A DNA stretch of 64,000 bases, from the NCBI RefSeq assembly GCF_056712565.1, contig NZ_CM160072.1; one strand, written 5' to 3'. Shown here piece after piece: positions 8,427 through 62,335 of this stretch (position 1 is its first letter; each line of letters starts with the position of its first letter). Under the pieces are notes generated by a model, which was not told where the DNA came from, did not search any database, and worked only from the letters and a program-made list of their open reading frames with translations. The position numbers were made by a program, and so were the translations under genes.

Positions 8427-9137
8427 TTACTCATTAATCAATTTTTTGATATGTTCTCTAATCTCTAACAACCTCATACCATAAGAGATGAATTTATAAT
8501 CATCTGTATCACGCGCAGGCAAATTATTAATTAAACAAATAAAAAAACCCAAATCTCGTTCAACACCACGATTATATCTAATACCAGCCATAATATACTG
8601 CTCATTCGTCATATACAGTGTTGCCGAAGAGGGATAATCAAAAAGAACAAGATCTCTTAAATAAGTAGCAGCAATTTGAAAGGTAAAATCATCCTCCATT
8701 AGGCATGTCGCTAACTCTAACTGATTTCTGGTAGTTAATTCTGAAGGGTCTAGACCTAGAGTAATCGCTGCGGTTCGTATTTGTATACCCATTGAGCCAA
8801 ATGATGTTTTATTTTCAGGCATATCTAACAATCCGATCATTCTTTTTGTTTCATATATCTGAAACTTATAATTTTCAGGCATACCTCCTGACTCAATCCA
8901 GGCCACGCCGCCCAGTAACTCTGGACGAATTCCAGCGGCGTATGCATGTTTAATTATTTTGTCTCTATTATATTGTACATATGCATCTTTATAAGCATTT
9001 AAATAATATACTCCTGAACGGCGACGCGAATCATTTTTTCCTAACTTCCAGAGTAAAACGTCCATTTCATCCCATTTACGGAACTTCGCTTGTGGAATTG
9101 TACAATATCTATTTTTTATAGTGAGATCGCTTTTCAT
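8427..9137 (-). CDS. hypothetical protein with lytic transglycosylase/lysozyme-like (SLT/GH23-type) motifs; candidate Hcp-associated T6SS effector
   Basis: ORF 8427-9164; start placed at ATG 9135-9137 (MKSDLTIKNRY...), 2 bp after hcp stop, with AAGGA RBS inside hcp 3' end. Motifs GGVAWIESGG, FGSMGIQ and AGIRYNRG in SLT-like order; no N-terminal signal peptide. Confidence 0.55.
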   Translation of the reverse strand: MKSDLTIKNRYCTIPQAKFRKWDEMDVLLWKLGKNDSRRRSGVYYLNAYKDAYVQYNRDKIIKHAYAAGIRPELLGGVAWIESGGMPENYKFQIYETKRMIGLLDMPENKTSFGSMGIQIRTAAITLGLDPSELTTRNQLELATCLMEDDFTFQIAATYLRDLVLFDYPSSATLYMTNEQYIMAGIRYNRGVERDLGFFICLINNLPARDTDDYKFISYGMRLLEIREHIKKLINE

Positions 9138-38119: not shown

Positions 38120-38315
38120 GCATATAGCCAAAATAACGTGAGCGGGTCCATGCCCGACAGAATCGTTACTCTCTCCCATCCGGACTCTAACCGTCGGCCC
38201 CGGAATTACACCGGATCTGCTGTCCTTTGAGTTCGCACCCAAAGCGCTCGCGGGCTTTCAACTGAGTTGATTTACCGCCGGTGGGGAATTTCGCCCCGCC
38301 CTGAGAATAAGCGGA
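38120..38315 (-). promoter_or_regulatory. FMN riboswitch (RFN element) in ribB 5' leader
   Basis: Minus-strand sequence contains ...GGGCGGGGCGAAATTCCCCACCGGCGGTAAA...CCGACGGTTAGAGTCCGGATGGGAGAG..., conserved FMN-aptamer blocks. Confidence 0.8.
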
Positions 38316-38433: not shown

Positions 38434-38733
38434 ATGATTGACCCGAAAAAAATTGAGCAAATCGCTCGCCAGGTTCACGAATCAATGCCTAAAGGAATCA
38501 GGGAGTTCGGGGAAGATGTGGAGAAAAAAATCCGCCAAACCCTACAAGCGCAGCTGACGCGTCTCGATCTGGTAAGCCGCGAAGAATTCGACGTTCAGAC
38601 GCAAGTCCTGTTACGGACTCGTGAAAAACTGGCGTTACTGGAGCAGCGCATCAGCGAACTGGAAGCGCGCAATAATCCGATAGCAGAACTTCAATCTCCT
38701 CCGGCTATCCCGCCAGTTGATAAAGCAGAATAA
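38434..38733 (+). CDS. ubiK: ubiquinone biosynthesis accessory factor UbiK (YqiC)
   Basis: ORF 38374-38733; start placed at [13 protein letters not shown]... preceded by agggaaa RBS. Confidence 0.8.
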
Positions 38734-38767
38734 AGCACCACAAAAACGGGCCAGACGGCCCGTAATA

Positions 38768-38968
38768 TCAGTGTTCTAATTCAAGTTCTCTGGTTTGCAT
38801 CATCTGTTGGCAATACCAGGCATAACGCGCGCAAAACCAGGTTCTATGTTCTTCATCCATGTTACCAGTAACGGCCAGAATATCGACCGGGCGACCTTCT
38901 GCGTGCATTCTGGCAAAACTACGCGCGAGAAAATCGAAATTATTTAAAGAATTAAGACTATGATCCAT
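38768..38968 (-). CDS. glgS: surface composition regulator GlgS
   Basis: [66 protein letters not shown] (66 aa). Confidence 0.9.
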
Positions 38969-39893: not shown

Positions 39894-41555
39894 ATGGATG
39901 ATATCGTTAATTCTGTGCCCTCCTGGATGTTTACCGCGATTATCGCCGTATGCATTCTGTTTATTATTGGAATTATTTTCGCCAGGCTCTATCGTCGCGC
40001 TTCGGCAGAGCAAGCATTTGTTCGTACTGGTTTAAGTGGGCAAAAAGTGGTGATGAGCGGTGGCGCAATCGTGATGCCGATCTTTCATGAAATAATTCCC
40101 ATCAATATGAATACCCTGAAGCTGGAAGTCAGCCGCTCAACCATTGATAGCCTGATTACGAAAGATCGTATGCGTGTTGATGTTGTAGTGGCTTTCTTTG
40201 TACGGGTAAAACCGTCAGTAGAAGGCATCGCCACTGCGGCCCAGACGCTGGGGCAACGCACCCTGTCGCCTGAAGACTTACGTATGCTGGTGGAAGATAA
40301 ATTTGTCGATGCCCTCCGTGCAACAGCGGCACAAATGACCATGCATGAGTTACAGGATACCCGCGAGAACTTCGTGCAGGGAGTACAAAATACCGTAGCT
40401 GAAGATCTGTCGAAAAATGGCCTGGAACTGGAAAGCGTTTCACTTACCAACTTTAACCAGACCTCGAAAGAACATTTCAATCCGAACAATGCCTTTGACG
40501 CCGAAGGTTTAACCAAACTGACTCAGGAGACGGAGCGCCGTCGTCGCGAACGTAACGAAGTTGAACAGGATGTGGAAGTCGCAGTGCGTGAGAAAAACCG
40601 TGATGCACTTTCGCGCAAGTTGGAGATTGAACAACAAGAAGCGTTTATGACGCTTGAGCAGGAGCAGCAGGTTAAAACCCGTACCGCTGAGCAGAATGCG
40701 AAAATTGCGGCTTTTGAAGCTGAACGTCGTCGTGAAGCAGAGCAGACGCGAATTCTGGCTGAACGACAGATTCAGGAAACGGAAATCGACCGCGAACAGG
40801 CCGTCCGCTCAAGAAAGGTTGAGGCCGAACGTGAAGTTCGCATTAAAGAGATCGAACAGCAGCAGGTCACCGAAATCGCTAACCAGACGAAATCGATCGC
40901 TATTGCCGCCAAATCGGAACAACAGTCCCAGGCAGAAGCGCGTGCTAACCTTGCACTCGCAGAAGCAGTAAGCGCCCAACAAAACGTAGAAACCACTCGC
41001 CAGACTGCCGAAGCCGATCGTGCTAAACAAGTGGCGTTGATCGCCGCAGCGCAGGATGCAGAAACCAAAGCGGTTGAACTGACCGTGCGGGCGAAAGCAG
41101 AAAAAGAAGCCGCAGAGATGCAGGCGGCGGCTATCGTTGAGTTAGCCGAAGCTACACGTAAAAAGGGTCTGGCGGAAGCAGAAGCACAACGTGCGCTGAA
41201 CGATGCTATCAACGTACTTTCTGATGAACAAACCAGCCTTAAATTCAAACTGGCATTATTGCAGGCGCTGCCTGCGGTAATTGAGAAATCCGTTGAGCCT
41301 ATGAAGGCTATCGACGGCATCAAAATTATTCAGGTCGATGGGCTGAATCGTGGTGGCGCTACGGGTGATGCAAACACGGGGAATGTGGGGGGCGGAAACC
41401 TGGCAGAACAAGCGTTATCAGCCGCACTCTCTTACCGCACACAGGCACCGCTGATTGACTCCTTGCTCAATGAAATTGGCGTTTCAGGCGGCTCACTGGC
41501 GGCATTGACTTCATCCTTAAGCTCAACAACTCCCGTCGAAGAAAAAGCAGAGTAA
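39894..41555 (+). CDS. yqiK: flotillin-like SPFH/band-7 protein YqiK
   Basis: 553-aa ORF with N-terminal TM, SPFH domain and long Ala/Glu-rich coiled coil. Confidence 0.88.
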   Translation: MDDIVNSVPSWMFTAIIAVCILFIIGIIFARLYRRASAEQAFVRTGLSGQKVVMSGGAIVMPIFHEIIPINMNTLKLEVSRSTIDSLITKDRMRVDVVVAFFVRVKPSVEGIATAAQTLGQRTLSPEDLRMLVEDKFVDALRATAAQMTMHELQDTRENFVQGVQNTVAEDLSKNGLELESVSLTNFNQTSKEHFNPNNAFDAEGLTKLTQETERRRRERNEVEQDVEVAVREKNRDALSRKLEIEQQEAFMTLEQEQQVKTRTAEQNAKIAAFEAERRREAEQTRILAERQIQETEIDREQAVRSRKVEAEREVRIKEIEQQQVTEIANQTKSIAIAAKSEQQSQAEARANLALAEAVSAQQNVETTRQTAEADRAKQVALIAAAQDAETKAVELTVRAKAEKEAAEMQAAAIVELAEATRKKGLAEAEAQRALNDAINVLSDEQTSLKFKLALLQALPAVIEKSVEPMKAIDGIKIIQVDGLNRGGATGDANTGNVGGGNLAEQALSAALSYRTQAPLIDSLLNEIGVSGGSLAALTSSLSSTTPVEEKAE

Positions 41556-41571
41556 ACCCTCTTCTATGAAT

Positions 41572-41603
41572 AATCCCTGGCCCAAAAAGCCGGGGATTTT
41601 TTA
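41572..41603 (+). terminator. rho-independent terminator of yqiJK
   Basis: aatccctgg - loop - ccggggatt stem followed by tttttat. Confidence 0.65.
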
Positions 41604-41749
41604 TATCTGCGTTCCGCTAAAAGGTGCAAATGATCAGGCTGTTGCAGCATTTTGCGTGACTGCTCGGGGAAGGTAAAACTGCCTCTGGGAAAGCGTTGCG
41701 CGGGGTCCGGCGCTCATCAACAATCGGGGAGTCAGCAAGGGGCTGAAAC

Positions 41750-41895
41750 GGGAAAGCCCCTCCCGAGGAAGGGGCCTTATAGAAGGAAAGGGTTATGATG
41801 AAGTTCGTCATCATACTGGTTGTGTTGTTACTGTTAAGTTTCCCGACTTACTAACAACTCATCAGAGGGGGGAGAAATCCTCCCTTACCCTTGTT
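41750..41895 (-). ncRNA. sib: Sib antitoxin sRNA antisense to ibs (approximate ends)
   Basis: Minus strand opposite ibs begins near ...aagggtaagggaggatttctcccccctctgat..., a Sib-like 5' block; boundaries not determined. Confidence 0.5.
41795..41854 (+). CDS. ibs: Ibs-family type I toxin (19-aa hydrophobic peptide)
   Basis: atgatgaagttcgtcatcatactggttgtgttgttactgttaagtttcccgacttactaa encodes MMKFVIILVVLLLLSFPTY; yqiK-hldE intergenic, the remembered sibD/sibE locus. Confidence 0.7.
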   Translation: MMKFVIILVVLLLLSFPTY

Positions 41896-41973
41896 CCTTT
41901 ACTTTAGGTTGAAAAAACAACAGCGTCAATAGATCTGCCTGCTACGAAGCGAGATCTGTGAACCGCTTTCCAG

Positions 41974-43407
41974 TTAGCCTTTTTTATCCAGTTGGATCTT
42001 CTTGATGATATTGGTCGTCGAGCAACCGTCTTCAAAGTTGAGCACCAGCACTTCGCCACCGTTGGCCCAGACTTCTTTACTCCCGGCAATCTCTTCTGGT
42101 TTATAGTCGCCGCCTTTCACCAGCAGATCTGGCAAGATCCCGGCGATCAAGCGCTGCGGCGTGTCCTCTTCAAACGACACCACCCAGTCGACCGCTTCCA
42201 GTGCGCCCAGCACAATCATACGCTGTTCGAGCGGGTTAACGGGGCGGGAATCCCCTTTCAGCCGTTTGGTGGAGGCATCGCTGTTCACAGCGACAATCAA
42301 ACGGTCACCCAGTTTACGGGCATTTGCCAGATAAGAGACGTGCCCAGCGTGCAGGATGTCAAAGACACCGTTGGTCATCACCACTTTTTCACCGCGTTTA
42401 CGCGCTGCCGCTACAGCAAGCTTCAGTTCCTCTTCGGTCATCACACCAAAGCCGGTATCTGCACGTCCACGTACTGCGTTTTCCAGCTCGATCGGCGAAA
42501 CCGTGGATGTCCCCAGTTTGCCGACCACCACACCAGCCGCCGCATTGGCAAAGAAGCAGGCTTCTTCCAGCGAATTACCCGCTGCCAGCGTTGCCGCCAG
42601 GACGCCAATCACCGTGTCGCCCGCACCGGTAACGTCATACACTTCCTGCGCCTGGGTTGGCATATGCAGCGGCGCTTTACCCGGTTGCAGCAGCGACATA
42701 CCCTGTTCGGAACGGGTCACTAACAGAGCCGAGAGTTCGTAATCGGCAATCAGTTTCATGCCGCGCTCAACAATCTCTTCTTCGGTCTTACATTTACCGA
42801 CAACAGCTTCAAATTCCGAGAGATTCGGCGTTAACAGCGTAGCGCCGCGGTAGCGCTCAAAATCGGTACCTTTTGGATCAATCAGCACCGGAACACCCGC
42901 TTTACGCGCCAGTTGGATCATCTGCTGTACGCTTGCCAGCGCACCTTTGGCGTAGTCAGAAAGCACCAGCGCGCCAATCGAACTCAGTGCCTGATTAATC
43001 CGCTCGTGCAGCGGCTGCGGATCAACCCCTTCGAAACCTTCTTCGAAATCCAGACGGATCAGCTGTTGGTTGCGGGAAAGTACCCGTAATTTGGTGATGG
43101 TCGGATGCGTCGGTACAGAAACAAAGTCGCATTTGACGTTGACGTCGGCCAGAGATTTACTGAGCGCGCGCGCCGCATCGTCAATGCCCGTCAACCCGAC
43201 CAGGCGTGCATTAGCACCGAGAGAAGCGATATTCATCGCCACGTTAGCCGCGCCGCCCGGACGTTCTTCGATGGTATTCACTTTAACCACGGGCACCGGC
43301 GCTTCCGGCGAGATACGGCTGGTGGGACCATACCAGTAACGATCCAGCATCACATCACCAACCACCATCACTCCTGCACGTTCAAACTCTGGCAGCGTTA
43401 CTTTCAT
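41974..43407 (-). CDS. hldE: bifunctional D-beta-D-heptose 7-phosphate kinase / heptose 1-phosphate adenylyltransferase
   Basis: 477-aa [30 protein letters not shown]..., recognised HldE (RfaE). Confidence 0.95.
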
Positions 43408-49797: not shown

Positions 49798-49955
49798 GCC
49801 GGATGCGACGTAAGCGTCTTATCCGGCTACATGTCAACGACAGTTGTAGGCCTGATAAGACGCGCGAGCGTCGCATCAGGCGTTGATTGCCGGATGCGGC
49901 GTGAACGCCTTATCCGGCCTACGCAATCTGATAAGACGCGTCAGCATCATATCCG
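49798..49955. repeat. BIME: cluster of 3-4 REP palindromic units
   Basis: Alternating-orientation units gccggatgcgacgtaagcgtcttatccggc / gcctgataagacgcgcgagcgtcgcatcaggc / gccggatgcggcgtgaacgccttatccggcc. Confidence 0.85.
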
Positions 49956-62259: not shown

Positions 62260-62335
62260 GGCCCCTTAGCTCAGTGGTTAGAGCAGGCGACTCATAATCG
62301 CTTGGTCGCTGGTTCAAGTCCAGCAGGGGCCACCA
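62260..62335 (+). tRNA. ileX: tRNA-Ile (anticodon CAU, lysidine-type minor isoleucine tRNA)
   Basis: 76-nt ggccccttagctcagtggttagagcaggcgactcataatcgcttggtcgctggttcaagtccagcaggggccacca with encoded CCA; upstream ttgcga-17bp-tataat promoter. Confidence 0.9.

What the first reader, a model, noticed from the sequence alone, without database searches (positions are those of the whole stretch)
41606..41973. Single ibs/sib type I toxin-antitoxin copy in the yqiK-hldE intergenic region
A 19-codon ORF (41795-41854) encodes the hydrophobic peptide MMKFVIILVVLLLLSFPTY, an Ibs-type toxin. The opposite strand has a Sib-sRNA-like start block and GC-rich hairpins. From memory, K-12 carries two tandem copies (sibD/ibsD and sibE/ibsE) at this locus; only one is present here, indicating copy-number variation of this TA repeat between strains.
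Basis: partly seen in the sequence, partly recalled or inferred. Interest (0 to 1): 0.45.

Follow-up and report, generated by a model that had tools for sequence, protein, structure and literature searches.

The report
Single ibsE/sibE toxin-antitoxin copy, known variant
The gap between yqiK and hldE holds one intact Ibs toxin / Sib antisense-RNA module where E. coli K-12 has two in tandem; this one-copy form is in about a quarter of complete E. coli genomes, is already annotated and published, and is therefore correct but ordinary.

Summary
The ORF at 41795-41854 (+) encodes MMKFVIILVVLLLLSFPTY, which is K-12 IbsE with L4F. The opposite strand gives a full-length Rfam SIB_RNA match of 142 bits (gathering score 56), the only one in the 64-kb window. 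By homology the Sib RNA runs 41894->41751 (-): 144 nt, 140/144 identical to K-12 SibE.

The yqiK-hldE gap is 418 bp here and 794 bp in MG1655, which carries sibD/ibsD plus sibE/ibsE. The difference is one ~377-bp repeat unit.

Among 5,426 complete E. coli genomes:
- 1,325 (24%) have the one-copy arrangement.
- 3,943 (73%) carry the K-12 D-to-E junction.
- At least one genome has three copies.

E. albertii has two copies with the same junction and D-type and E-type ORFs matching K-12's. A Citrobacter has one copy at the same locus. So the one-copy state here is most likely a secondary loss of the D unit by recombination between the repeats. Other one-copy strains keep D-type or chimeric units, which points to repeated independent losses.

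RefSeq already annotates this gene as ibsE. A 2020 paper lists a strain with four Ibs, including a single ibsE homolog. Verdict: real, correctly interpreted, already known, low interest.

The parts
41556..41973 (.). yqiK-hldE intergenic region, 418 bp (794 bp in K-12 MG1655)
   Evidence: ORF list and RefSeq annotation of the identical ATCC 11775 locus. Lengths compared.
41573..41929 (.). The single SIB repeat unit, homologous to each of the two ~377-bp units of K-12. It is 95.3% identical to the K-12 E unit and 92% to the D unit.
   Evidence: blastn of the window against K-12, and of the K-12 region against itself. Alignments.
41572..41598 (+). Terminator-like hairpin followed by a T run, just after the yqiK stop. 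It lies inside the repeat unit, so every unit of a multi-copy array carries one.
   Evidence: Terminator scan. The hairpin is present at the start of both the D and E units in K-12 and E. albertii.
41696..41724 (+). Inferred ibs promoter: TTGCGC, 17-nt spacer, AACAAT. The predicted transcription start is near 41731.
   Evidence: The motif is conserved upstream of ibsD and ibsE, with an equivalent upstream of ibsC. The predicted start sites fit the published 163-nt (ibsD) and 159-nt (ibsC) mRNA lengths (PMC2943612). This is an inference; it is below the threshold of the consensus scan.
41731..41893 (+). Inferred ibs mRNA of about 163 nt. It includes the Shine-Dalgarno-like AAGGAAAGGG at 41783-41792.
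   Evidence: Inferred from the promoter position and the published ibsD mRNA length. The ends were not measured in this strain.
41795..41854 (+). ibs ORF of 19 codons plus stop, MMKFVIILVVLLLLSFPTY. This is K-12 IbsE with L4F, and is annotated ibsE / WP_001387082.1 in RefSeq.
   Evidence: Aligned with IbsA-E.
41751..41894 (-). Sib antitoxin RNA gene, 144 nt, SibE type (140/144 identical to K-12 SibE). The region equivalent to TRD1 is 41826-41848 and the region equivalent to TRD2 is 41776-41795.
   Evidence: Ends mapped from the K-12 sibE annotation. Rfam match of 142 bits. Predicted fold -51.8 kcal/mol, z = -3.84. TRD regions mapped against SibC.
41901..41929 (-). Sib promoter: -35 TTGACG (41929-41924), 17-nt spacer, -10 TAAAGT (41906-41901). 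The start A at 41894 lies 7 nt downstream.
   Evidence: Promoter scan. Its position matches the 35-bp minimal sibD promoter described in PMC12956327.
41753..41778 (-). 3' terminator hairpin of Sib (11 bp stem, loop UCGG), followed by a weak U tract (CUUUCC), as in K-12 SibD and SibE.
   Evidence: Folds.

Best explanation
This is one intact ibs/sib type I toxin-antitoxin module of the IbsE/SibE type.

How it works:
- The + strand makes a ~160-nt mRNA for a 19-residue hydrophobic membrane peptide.
- The - strand makes a 144-nt Sib RNA from its own sigma-70 promoter. Sib is perfectly complementary to the ORF and ribosome-binding region of that mRNA.
- Sib pairs with the mRNA, nucleating in the ORF (TRD1) and at the translation-initiation region (TRD2). 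This blocks toxin synthesis and leads to duplex cleavage.

How it arose: the strain has one unit where K-12 has two because one ~377-bp repeat unit (the D unit) was lost. The most likely route is homologous recombination between the two tandem units of an ancestral two-copy array.

Why such changes are tolerated: toxin and antitoxin are encoded on opposite strands of the same DNA. Any deletion or chimeric unit therefore remains self-cognate, and copy number drifts between 1 and 3 among E. coli lineages.

Shown here: sequence, family match, copy number, population frequencies, and the shared junction in E. albertii. Inferred: transcription, repression, toxicity, and the recombination mechanism.
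For: Family and anatomy:
- Rfam SIB_RNA 142 bits, full length.
- Sib is 140/144 identical to K-12 SibE and has the same predicted fold.
- The peptide differs from IbsE only by L4F and keeps the family pattern MMK/R..VIIL...SF..Y.
- Sib promoter TTGACG-17-TAAAGT lies 7 nt upstream of the homologous start.
- A conserved ibs promoter-like motif fits the published mRNA lengths.
- RefSeq annotates the ORF as ibsE.

Copy number:
- One SIB match in 64 kb.
- The gap is 418 bp against 794 bp in K-12.
- 1,325 of 5,426 genomes are one-copy and 3,943 of 5,426 carry the D-to-E junction.
- Three copies in CFSAN004176.

Direction of change:
- E. albertii NBRC 107761 has two copies between yqiK and hldE. Its junction is AGAAGGTTTCGCTAACACAT, against AGAAGGTTTCATTAACACAT in K-12. 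Its first ORF is identical to IbsD and its second is E-type.
- Citrobacter sp. FP75 has one copy at the same locus.

Recurrence: one-copy alleles of other strains carry D-type, E-type or chimeric units.

Mechanism as established for the family: PMC2943612.
Against: - There are no expression or toxicity data for this strain.
- The L4F change is untested. It is, however, also the E-copy residue in E. albertii and in two- and three-copy E. coli arrays.
- Only one E. albertii genome supports the direction of change, and inter-species recombination could mimic shared ancestry.
- The crossover point cannot be placed. Against K-12 the unit looks mosaic. Against closer arrays it is E-type throughout.
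- The NCBIfam HMM scan of the peptide found nothing, but the query was only 20 aa.
- The Sib terminator has a weak U tract. The same is true in K-12.
Confidence: 0.88

Rival explanations
1. The single copy is the ancestral E. coli state, and the second copy in K-12 and others is a later, lineage-specific duplication.
For: - Citrobacter sp. FP75 has one copy at the same locus.
- Against K-12 D and E the window unit shows a mix of D-like and E-like bases. That is what an undiverged ancestor would show.
- Fozo et al. 2010 describe lineage-specific duplications of ibs.
Against: - E. albertii carries two copies with the same 20-bp junction as K-12 (2 mismatches) and orthologous D-type and E-type ORFs. 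The duplication therefore predates the E. coli / E. albertii split.
- 73% of E. coli genomes hold that same junction.
- One-copy alleles are heterogeneous (D-type, E-type, chimeric), as expected from several independent deletions rather than one ancestral state.
- Against closer two- and three-copy arrays the window unit is E-type throughout.
Confidence: 0.08
2. The single copy is an assembly artefact: two ~91%-identical tandem units collapsed into one.
For: Tandem repeats of ~377 bp can collapse in short-read assemblies. This is general knowledge, not a tool result.
Against: - The same 818-bp arrangement, flanks included, is found at >=80% coverage in 1,325 complete genomes. These include ATCC 11775 and strain N21 at 100% identity and Nissle 1917.
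- The unit is a coherent E-type sequence with an intact ORF, not a D/E consensus.
Confidence: 0.02
3. The copy is a silent relic: the sequence is conserved but the module is no longer expressed or toxic in this lineage.
For: - No expression data were obtainable here.
- The peptide carries L4F relative to K-12 IbsE.
- The ibs promoter is a poor consensus match and was not flagged by the scan.
Against: - The ORF, the Shine-Dalgarno-like sequence, both promoter motifs and the Sib fold are all intact and essentially identical to the experimentally active K-12 modules.
- F4 is the residue of the E copy in E. albertii and in multi-copy E. coli arrays.
- The same weak ibs promoter motif is present in K-12 ibsD, whose 5' end was mapped.
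Confidence: 0.07

Closest known systems
sibE/ibsE of E. coli K-12 MG1655 (b4611/b4666)
   Same: - Same locus, next to the hldE 3' end, and same orientation.
- Sib is 140/144 identical.
- The TRD1-equivalent segment is identical.
- The peptide is 18/19 identical.
- Same promoter layout and same predicted fold.
   Different: - L4F in the peptide.
- -10 box TAAAGT instead of TAGAGT.
- Two changes in the TRD2-equivalent segment, which bring it closer to SibD.
- No sibD/ibsD unit between it and yqiK.
sibD/ibsD of E. coli K-12 (b4447/b4664)
   Same: It has the same family and the same repeat unit. It is the yqiK-proximal unit, and its left flank is the one retained here.
   Different: The Sib is only 89.7% identical. 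The peptide MMKLVIILIVLLLVSFAAY differs at 5 of 19 positions. This unit is the one missing from the window.
Ibs-4 of AIEC strain NRG857c (Front Microbiol 2020, PMC7232551)
   Same: This is a published E. coli genome listed with four Ibs loci: homologs of ibsA, ibsB, ibsC and a single 'homologous to ibsE'. No ibsD is listed, so the arrangement is the same as here. ATCC 11775 likewise shows four Sib-like places.
   Different: The sequences were not compared here. That paper did not analyse how the copy was lost.
Copy-number variation of other tandem type I modules (zor-orz, ldr-rdl)
   Same: These are also tandemly duplicated type I toxin-antitoxin units in one intergenic region, with 0 to 4 copies among E. 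coli strains (PMC11264685; PMC2887945; PMC7232551).
   Different: They belong to different toxin and sRNA families. In zor-orz the antitoxin is divergently encoded and antitoxin-only remnants occur. In ibs/sib the two genes overlap fully, so a unit is gained or lost as a whole.

Membership tests
Sib RNA (Rfam RF00113, SIB_RNA) | Covariance-model score above the curated gathering threshold, over the full model | tested here: met
   142.2 bits against 56, model positions 1-147 of 147, E=5e-31. This score is comparable to K-12 sibD (147.7) and sibE (142.1).
Sib RNA (Rfam RF00113, SIB_RNA) | Conserved multi-hairpin fold closed by a long-range stem, plus a 3' terminator hairpin | tested here: met
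   The MFE structure is the same as that of K-12 SibE. Energy -51.8 kcal/mol, z = -3.84, and 0 of 200 shuffles fold as well. The cmscan alignment flags only two non-standard pairs.
Sib RNA (Rfam RF00113, SIB_RNA) | Encoded exactly antisense to an ibs ORF and its ribosome-binding site | tested here: met
   Sib at 41894-41751 (-) spans the ibs ORF 41795-41854 (+) and the Shine-Dalgarno-like sequence 41783-41792.
Sib RNA (Rfam RF00113, SIB_RNA) | Own promoter and detectable ~140-nt transcript | tested here: inconclusive
   The promoter-like site TTGACG-17-TAAAGT is correctly placed. Transcription itself cannot be tested with these tools.
Ibs toxin family | 18-19-residue, strongly hydrophobic peptide with the pattern MM(K/R)..(V/I)I....LL..SF..Y | tested here: met
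   Alignment with IbsA-E; mean Kyte-Doolittle hydropathy 2.19, against 1.98-2.59 for the K-12 peptides.
Ibs toxin family | Match to a curated protein-family model | tested here: inconclusive
   The NCBIfam scan of a 20-aa query (V plus the peptide) returned no family. The peptide is below the size at which HMMER filters work, and Pfam scanning needs at least 30 aa. RefSeq names the identical protein WP_001387082.1 'type I toxin-antitoxin system Ibs family toxin'.
Ibs toxin family | Toxic to the cell when overproduced | not testable with these tools
   Shown for K-12 Ibs peptides in the literature (PMC2943612). Not tested for the F4 variant.
Type I toxin-antitoxin system | The antisense RNA represses synthesis of the toxin by pairing with its mRNA | not testable with these tools
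   Full complementarity follows from the overlap. The TRD1-equivalent segment is identical to SibE. Repression itself is inferred from K-12 work.
K-12-type tandem sibD-sibE array | Two repeat units joined by the junction AGAAGGTTTC..TAACACAT | tested here: not met
   The window has one unit only and no junction. The window therefore carries the one-copy allele, not the K-12 array.

The most novel reading that the evidence does not exclude
The yqiK-hldE ibs/sib array may be a recombination hot spot. Its copy number (1, 2 or 3) and its D/E chimeras would then be repeatedly re-made and fixed in a lineage-specific way. Under this reading, the one-copy E-type allele shared at 99-100% identity by ATCC 11775, Nissle 1917 and about 880 other genomes reflects selection on toxin dosage or on Sib target specificity (new TRD1/TRD2 combinations), not neutral drift.
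Probability: 0.12. Interest if true: 0.35.

Novelty: already known. Interest (0 to 1): 0.12.

Why it matters
It matters little beyond correct annotation. The module is a textbook type I toxin-antitoxin pair. Its presence as a single ibsE-type copy is already in RefSeq and in a published strain inventory.

This check adds a modest quantitative picture:
- About 24% of complete E. coli genomes have one copy at this locus, about 73% have two or more, and a few have three.
- The two-copy state predates the E. coli / E. albertii split.
- Loss has happened more than once, leaving different survivors.

This is useful background for anyone who deletes or probes sibD/sibE in non-K-12 strains, or who uses these repeats as markers.

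Tried and rejected
1. The scan of genome contigs with the degenerate pattern AAGGANAGGGNNATGATG was too loose.

2. The NCBIfam scan of the peptide found nothing, because the peptide is too short for HMMER.

3. Fozo et al. 2008 (PMC2597788) and the 2008 MMBR review (PMC2593563) are not held. The original statement on repeat numbers in other strains could not be read.

4. I tried to place the deletion crossover using K-12 and E. albertii as references. That suggested a D-to-E switch between 41782 and 41833. It rests on two sites only, and closer two- and three-copy arrays make the whole unit E-type. I therefore do not claim a crossover position.

5. A K-12-specific duplication, an assembly collapse and a decayed relic were considered and rejected (see rivals).

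6. A permissive Rfam scan of 41000-42500 found nothing else in the intergenic region. The only other hit was the weak mirror-strand echo of SIB_RNA (29.9 bits, below threshold).

Full report
**Observation.** It sits in the 418-bp gap between yqiK (39894-41555, +) and hldE (41974-43407, -). A permissive Rfam scan of 41000-42500 gives a full-length SIB_RNA (RF00113) match on the opposite strand, 41780-41929. It scores 142.2 bits against a gathering score of 56, E=5e-31. A gathering-threshold scan of the whole window finds no other SIB_RNA. The intergenic region is 100% identical to E. coli ATCC 11775, where RefSeq already annotates the ORF as ibsE (WP_001387082.1, 'type I toxin-antitoxin system Ibs family toxin') between yqiK and hldE.

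**Anatomy.** I transferred the ends of K-12 sibE by alignment.
- The Sib RNA is 41894->41751 (-), 144 nt. It is 140/144 identical to SibE and 89.7% identical to SibD.
- Its predicted fold equals that of SibE. A long closing stem encloses three hairpins, followed by an 11-bp terminator hairpin at 41778-41753. The energy is -51.8 kcal/mol, z = -3.84.
- A sigma-70-like promoter, TTGACG (41929-41924), 17 nt, TAAAGT (41906-41901), lies 7 nt upstream of the start A. This matches the 35-bp minimal sib promoter studied in PMC12956327.
- On the + strand, the motif TTGCGC-17-AACAAT (41696-41724) is conserved upstream of ibsD and ibsE, with an equivalent upstream of ibsC. Starts predicted from it reproduce the published 163-nt and 159-nt mRNA lengths. 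I therefore infer an ibs mRNA of about 41731-41893.
- AAGGAAAGGG (41783-41792) is the likely ribosome-binding site.
- The peptide fits the IbsA-E pattern and hydropathy.
- The segment equivalent to SibC TRD1 (41826-41848) is identical to SibE. The segment equivalent to TRD2 (41776-41795) differs from SibD at one position and from SibE at two.

**Comparison with K-12.** MG1655 has sibD/ibsD and sibE/ibsE in a 794-bp gap. The two K-12 units (intergenic positions 18-375 and 395-750) are 90.8% identical. The window aligns to the E unit at 95.3% and to the D unit at 92%. The 376-bp length difference is one unit. Each unit starts with the terminator-like hairpin that follows yqiK (41572-41598 here).

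**Population.** I searched 5,426 complete E. coli genomes with two queries.
- An 818-bp query (window gap plus 200 bp of each flank) is covered to >=80% in one piece in 1,325 genomes (24.4%). In two-copy genomes coverage stops at 73%.
- A 91-bp query across the K-12 D-to-E junction is covered to >=80% in 3,943 genomes (72.7%). Eighteen records have two junction matches.
- 158 genomes fall in neither class.

One three-copy array (D, D, E) was seen directly in CFSAN004176. Sib-like places per genome range from 2 to 11, with a median of 6. ATCC 11775 has 4 and Nissle 1917 has 3. Nissle 1917 has the same one-copy arrangement, with YqiK, Ibs and HldE proteins identical to those of ATCC 11775.

**Direction of change.** E. 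albertii NBRC 107761 has two SIB_RNA matches between yqiK and hldE. Its inter-unit junction is AGAAGGTTTCGCTAACACAT, against AGAAGGTTTCATTAACACAT in K-12. Its first ORF is identical to IbsD. Its second is E-type, MMKFVIILIVLLLLSFPTY, with the same F4 as the window. Citrobacter sp. FP75 has a single copy between hldE and yqiK. The simplest history has three steps:
- One copy in the common ancestor with Citrobacter.
- A duplication before the E. coli / E. albertii split.
- Later contractions and occasional expansions.

One-copy alleles of other E. coli strains differ in which unit survives:

| Strain | Surviving unit |
|---|---|
| 377323_2f | IbsD ORF |
| 2016C04-116 | D-like variant |
| OkiPb01690 | Clean chimera: D upstream, E ORF |
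| E166 | Another mosaic |
| FDAARGOS_1268 and the window | E-type ORF |

That heterogeneity argues for several independent deletions. Against the closest multi-copy arrays (Z142-4, CFSAN004176), the window unit is E-type over essentially its whole length. Those arrays' hldE-proximal copy encodes the very same peptide. So the D unit is the one that was lost. The crossover cannot be placed. An apparent D-to-E switch at 41782-41833 against K-12 and E. albertii rests on two sites and is not supported by the closer references.

**Mechanism.** Established knowledge for this family comes from Han et al. 2010, PMC2943612. Ibs peptides are toxic when expressed. Each Sib represses its cognate ibs mRNA through two independent recognition domains, one in the ORF and one at the translation-initiation region, from which pairing spreads. 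In that study's structure probing, ibsC mRNA showed distinct RNase III cleavage patterns when SibC was bound. The window copy has all the sequence elements needed for this. That it is expressed and functional here is an inference. Because the two genes are opposite strands of the same ~150 bp, any recombinant unit stays perfectly self-complementary. This is my inference for why unit loss, gain and chimerism are tolerated.

**Novelty.** Variation in Ibs number among E. coli, Shigella and relatives was tabulated in 2010: 6 in EDL933, 3-7 in Shigella, 7 in E. fergusonii and 2 in Salmonella. That paper noted the tandem duplication of ibs-sib in one intergenic region (PMC2887945). A 2020 inventory of AIEC strain NRG857c lists four Ibs loci, including a single 'homologous to ibsE' and no ibsD (PMC7232551). 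RefSeq annotates the gene. The finding is therefore correct and already known. The frequencies and the loss polarity given here are incremental.

Noticed in passing
L131 (E. coli CFSAN004176) 171-982: Three tandem ibs ORFs 376 bp apart (D, D, E) next to hldE, so the array also expands. Eighteen records have two junction matches and may be further three-copy arrays.
   Followed up: partly
L029 (E. albertii NBRC 107761) 392-1185: Two-copy array with the same junction as K-12. Its E copy encodes MMKFVIILIVLLLLSFPTY, so F4 (as in the window) rather than K-12's L4 may be the older E-type residue.
   Followed up: partly
window 41810-41837 (-): A second promoter-like site on the Sib strand, TTAACA-16-TATGAT (10 of 12 matches), lies inside the ibs ORF / Sib gene. 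It would give a 5'-truncated Sib. It may be chance: 2 sites were found against 0.5 expected in shuffles.
   Followed up: no
window 38556-38968: In the identical ATCC 11775 locus, ubiK lies directly upstream of glgS. In K-12 the fimbrial gene yqiI occupies that position. The yqiGHI fimbrial genes therefore seem to be absent from this strain at this site.
   Followed up: no
window 38164-38312 (-): FMN riboswitch aptamer, 120.9 bits.
   Followed up: no
window 49849-49919 (-): naRNA4 (nucleoid-associated noncoding RNA 4) match, 83 bits. A counterpart is present in the E. albertii locus L029 at 9061-9131.
   Followed up: no
window 62260-62332 (+): A tRNA gene, 73 bits.
   Followed up: no
E. coli genome collection: Six to nine Sib-like matches lie on plasmids. 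One of the 5,426 genomes has no match at all. 158 genomes fit neither the one-copy nor the junction test, for example CNR20180903, where only 17% of the query matched.
   Followed up: no
window 41930-41973: The 44 bp between the Sib -35 box and the hldE stop contain two AGATCT palindromes flanking a 15-nt spacer. The T-rich spacer of the Sib promoter follows on the hldE strand. The hldE terminator and the Sib promoter may overlap.
   Followed up: no
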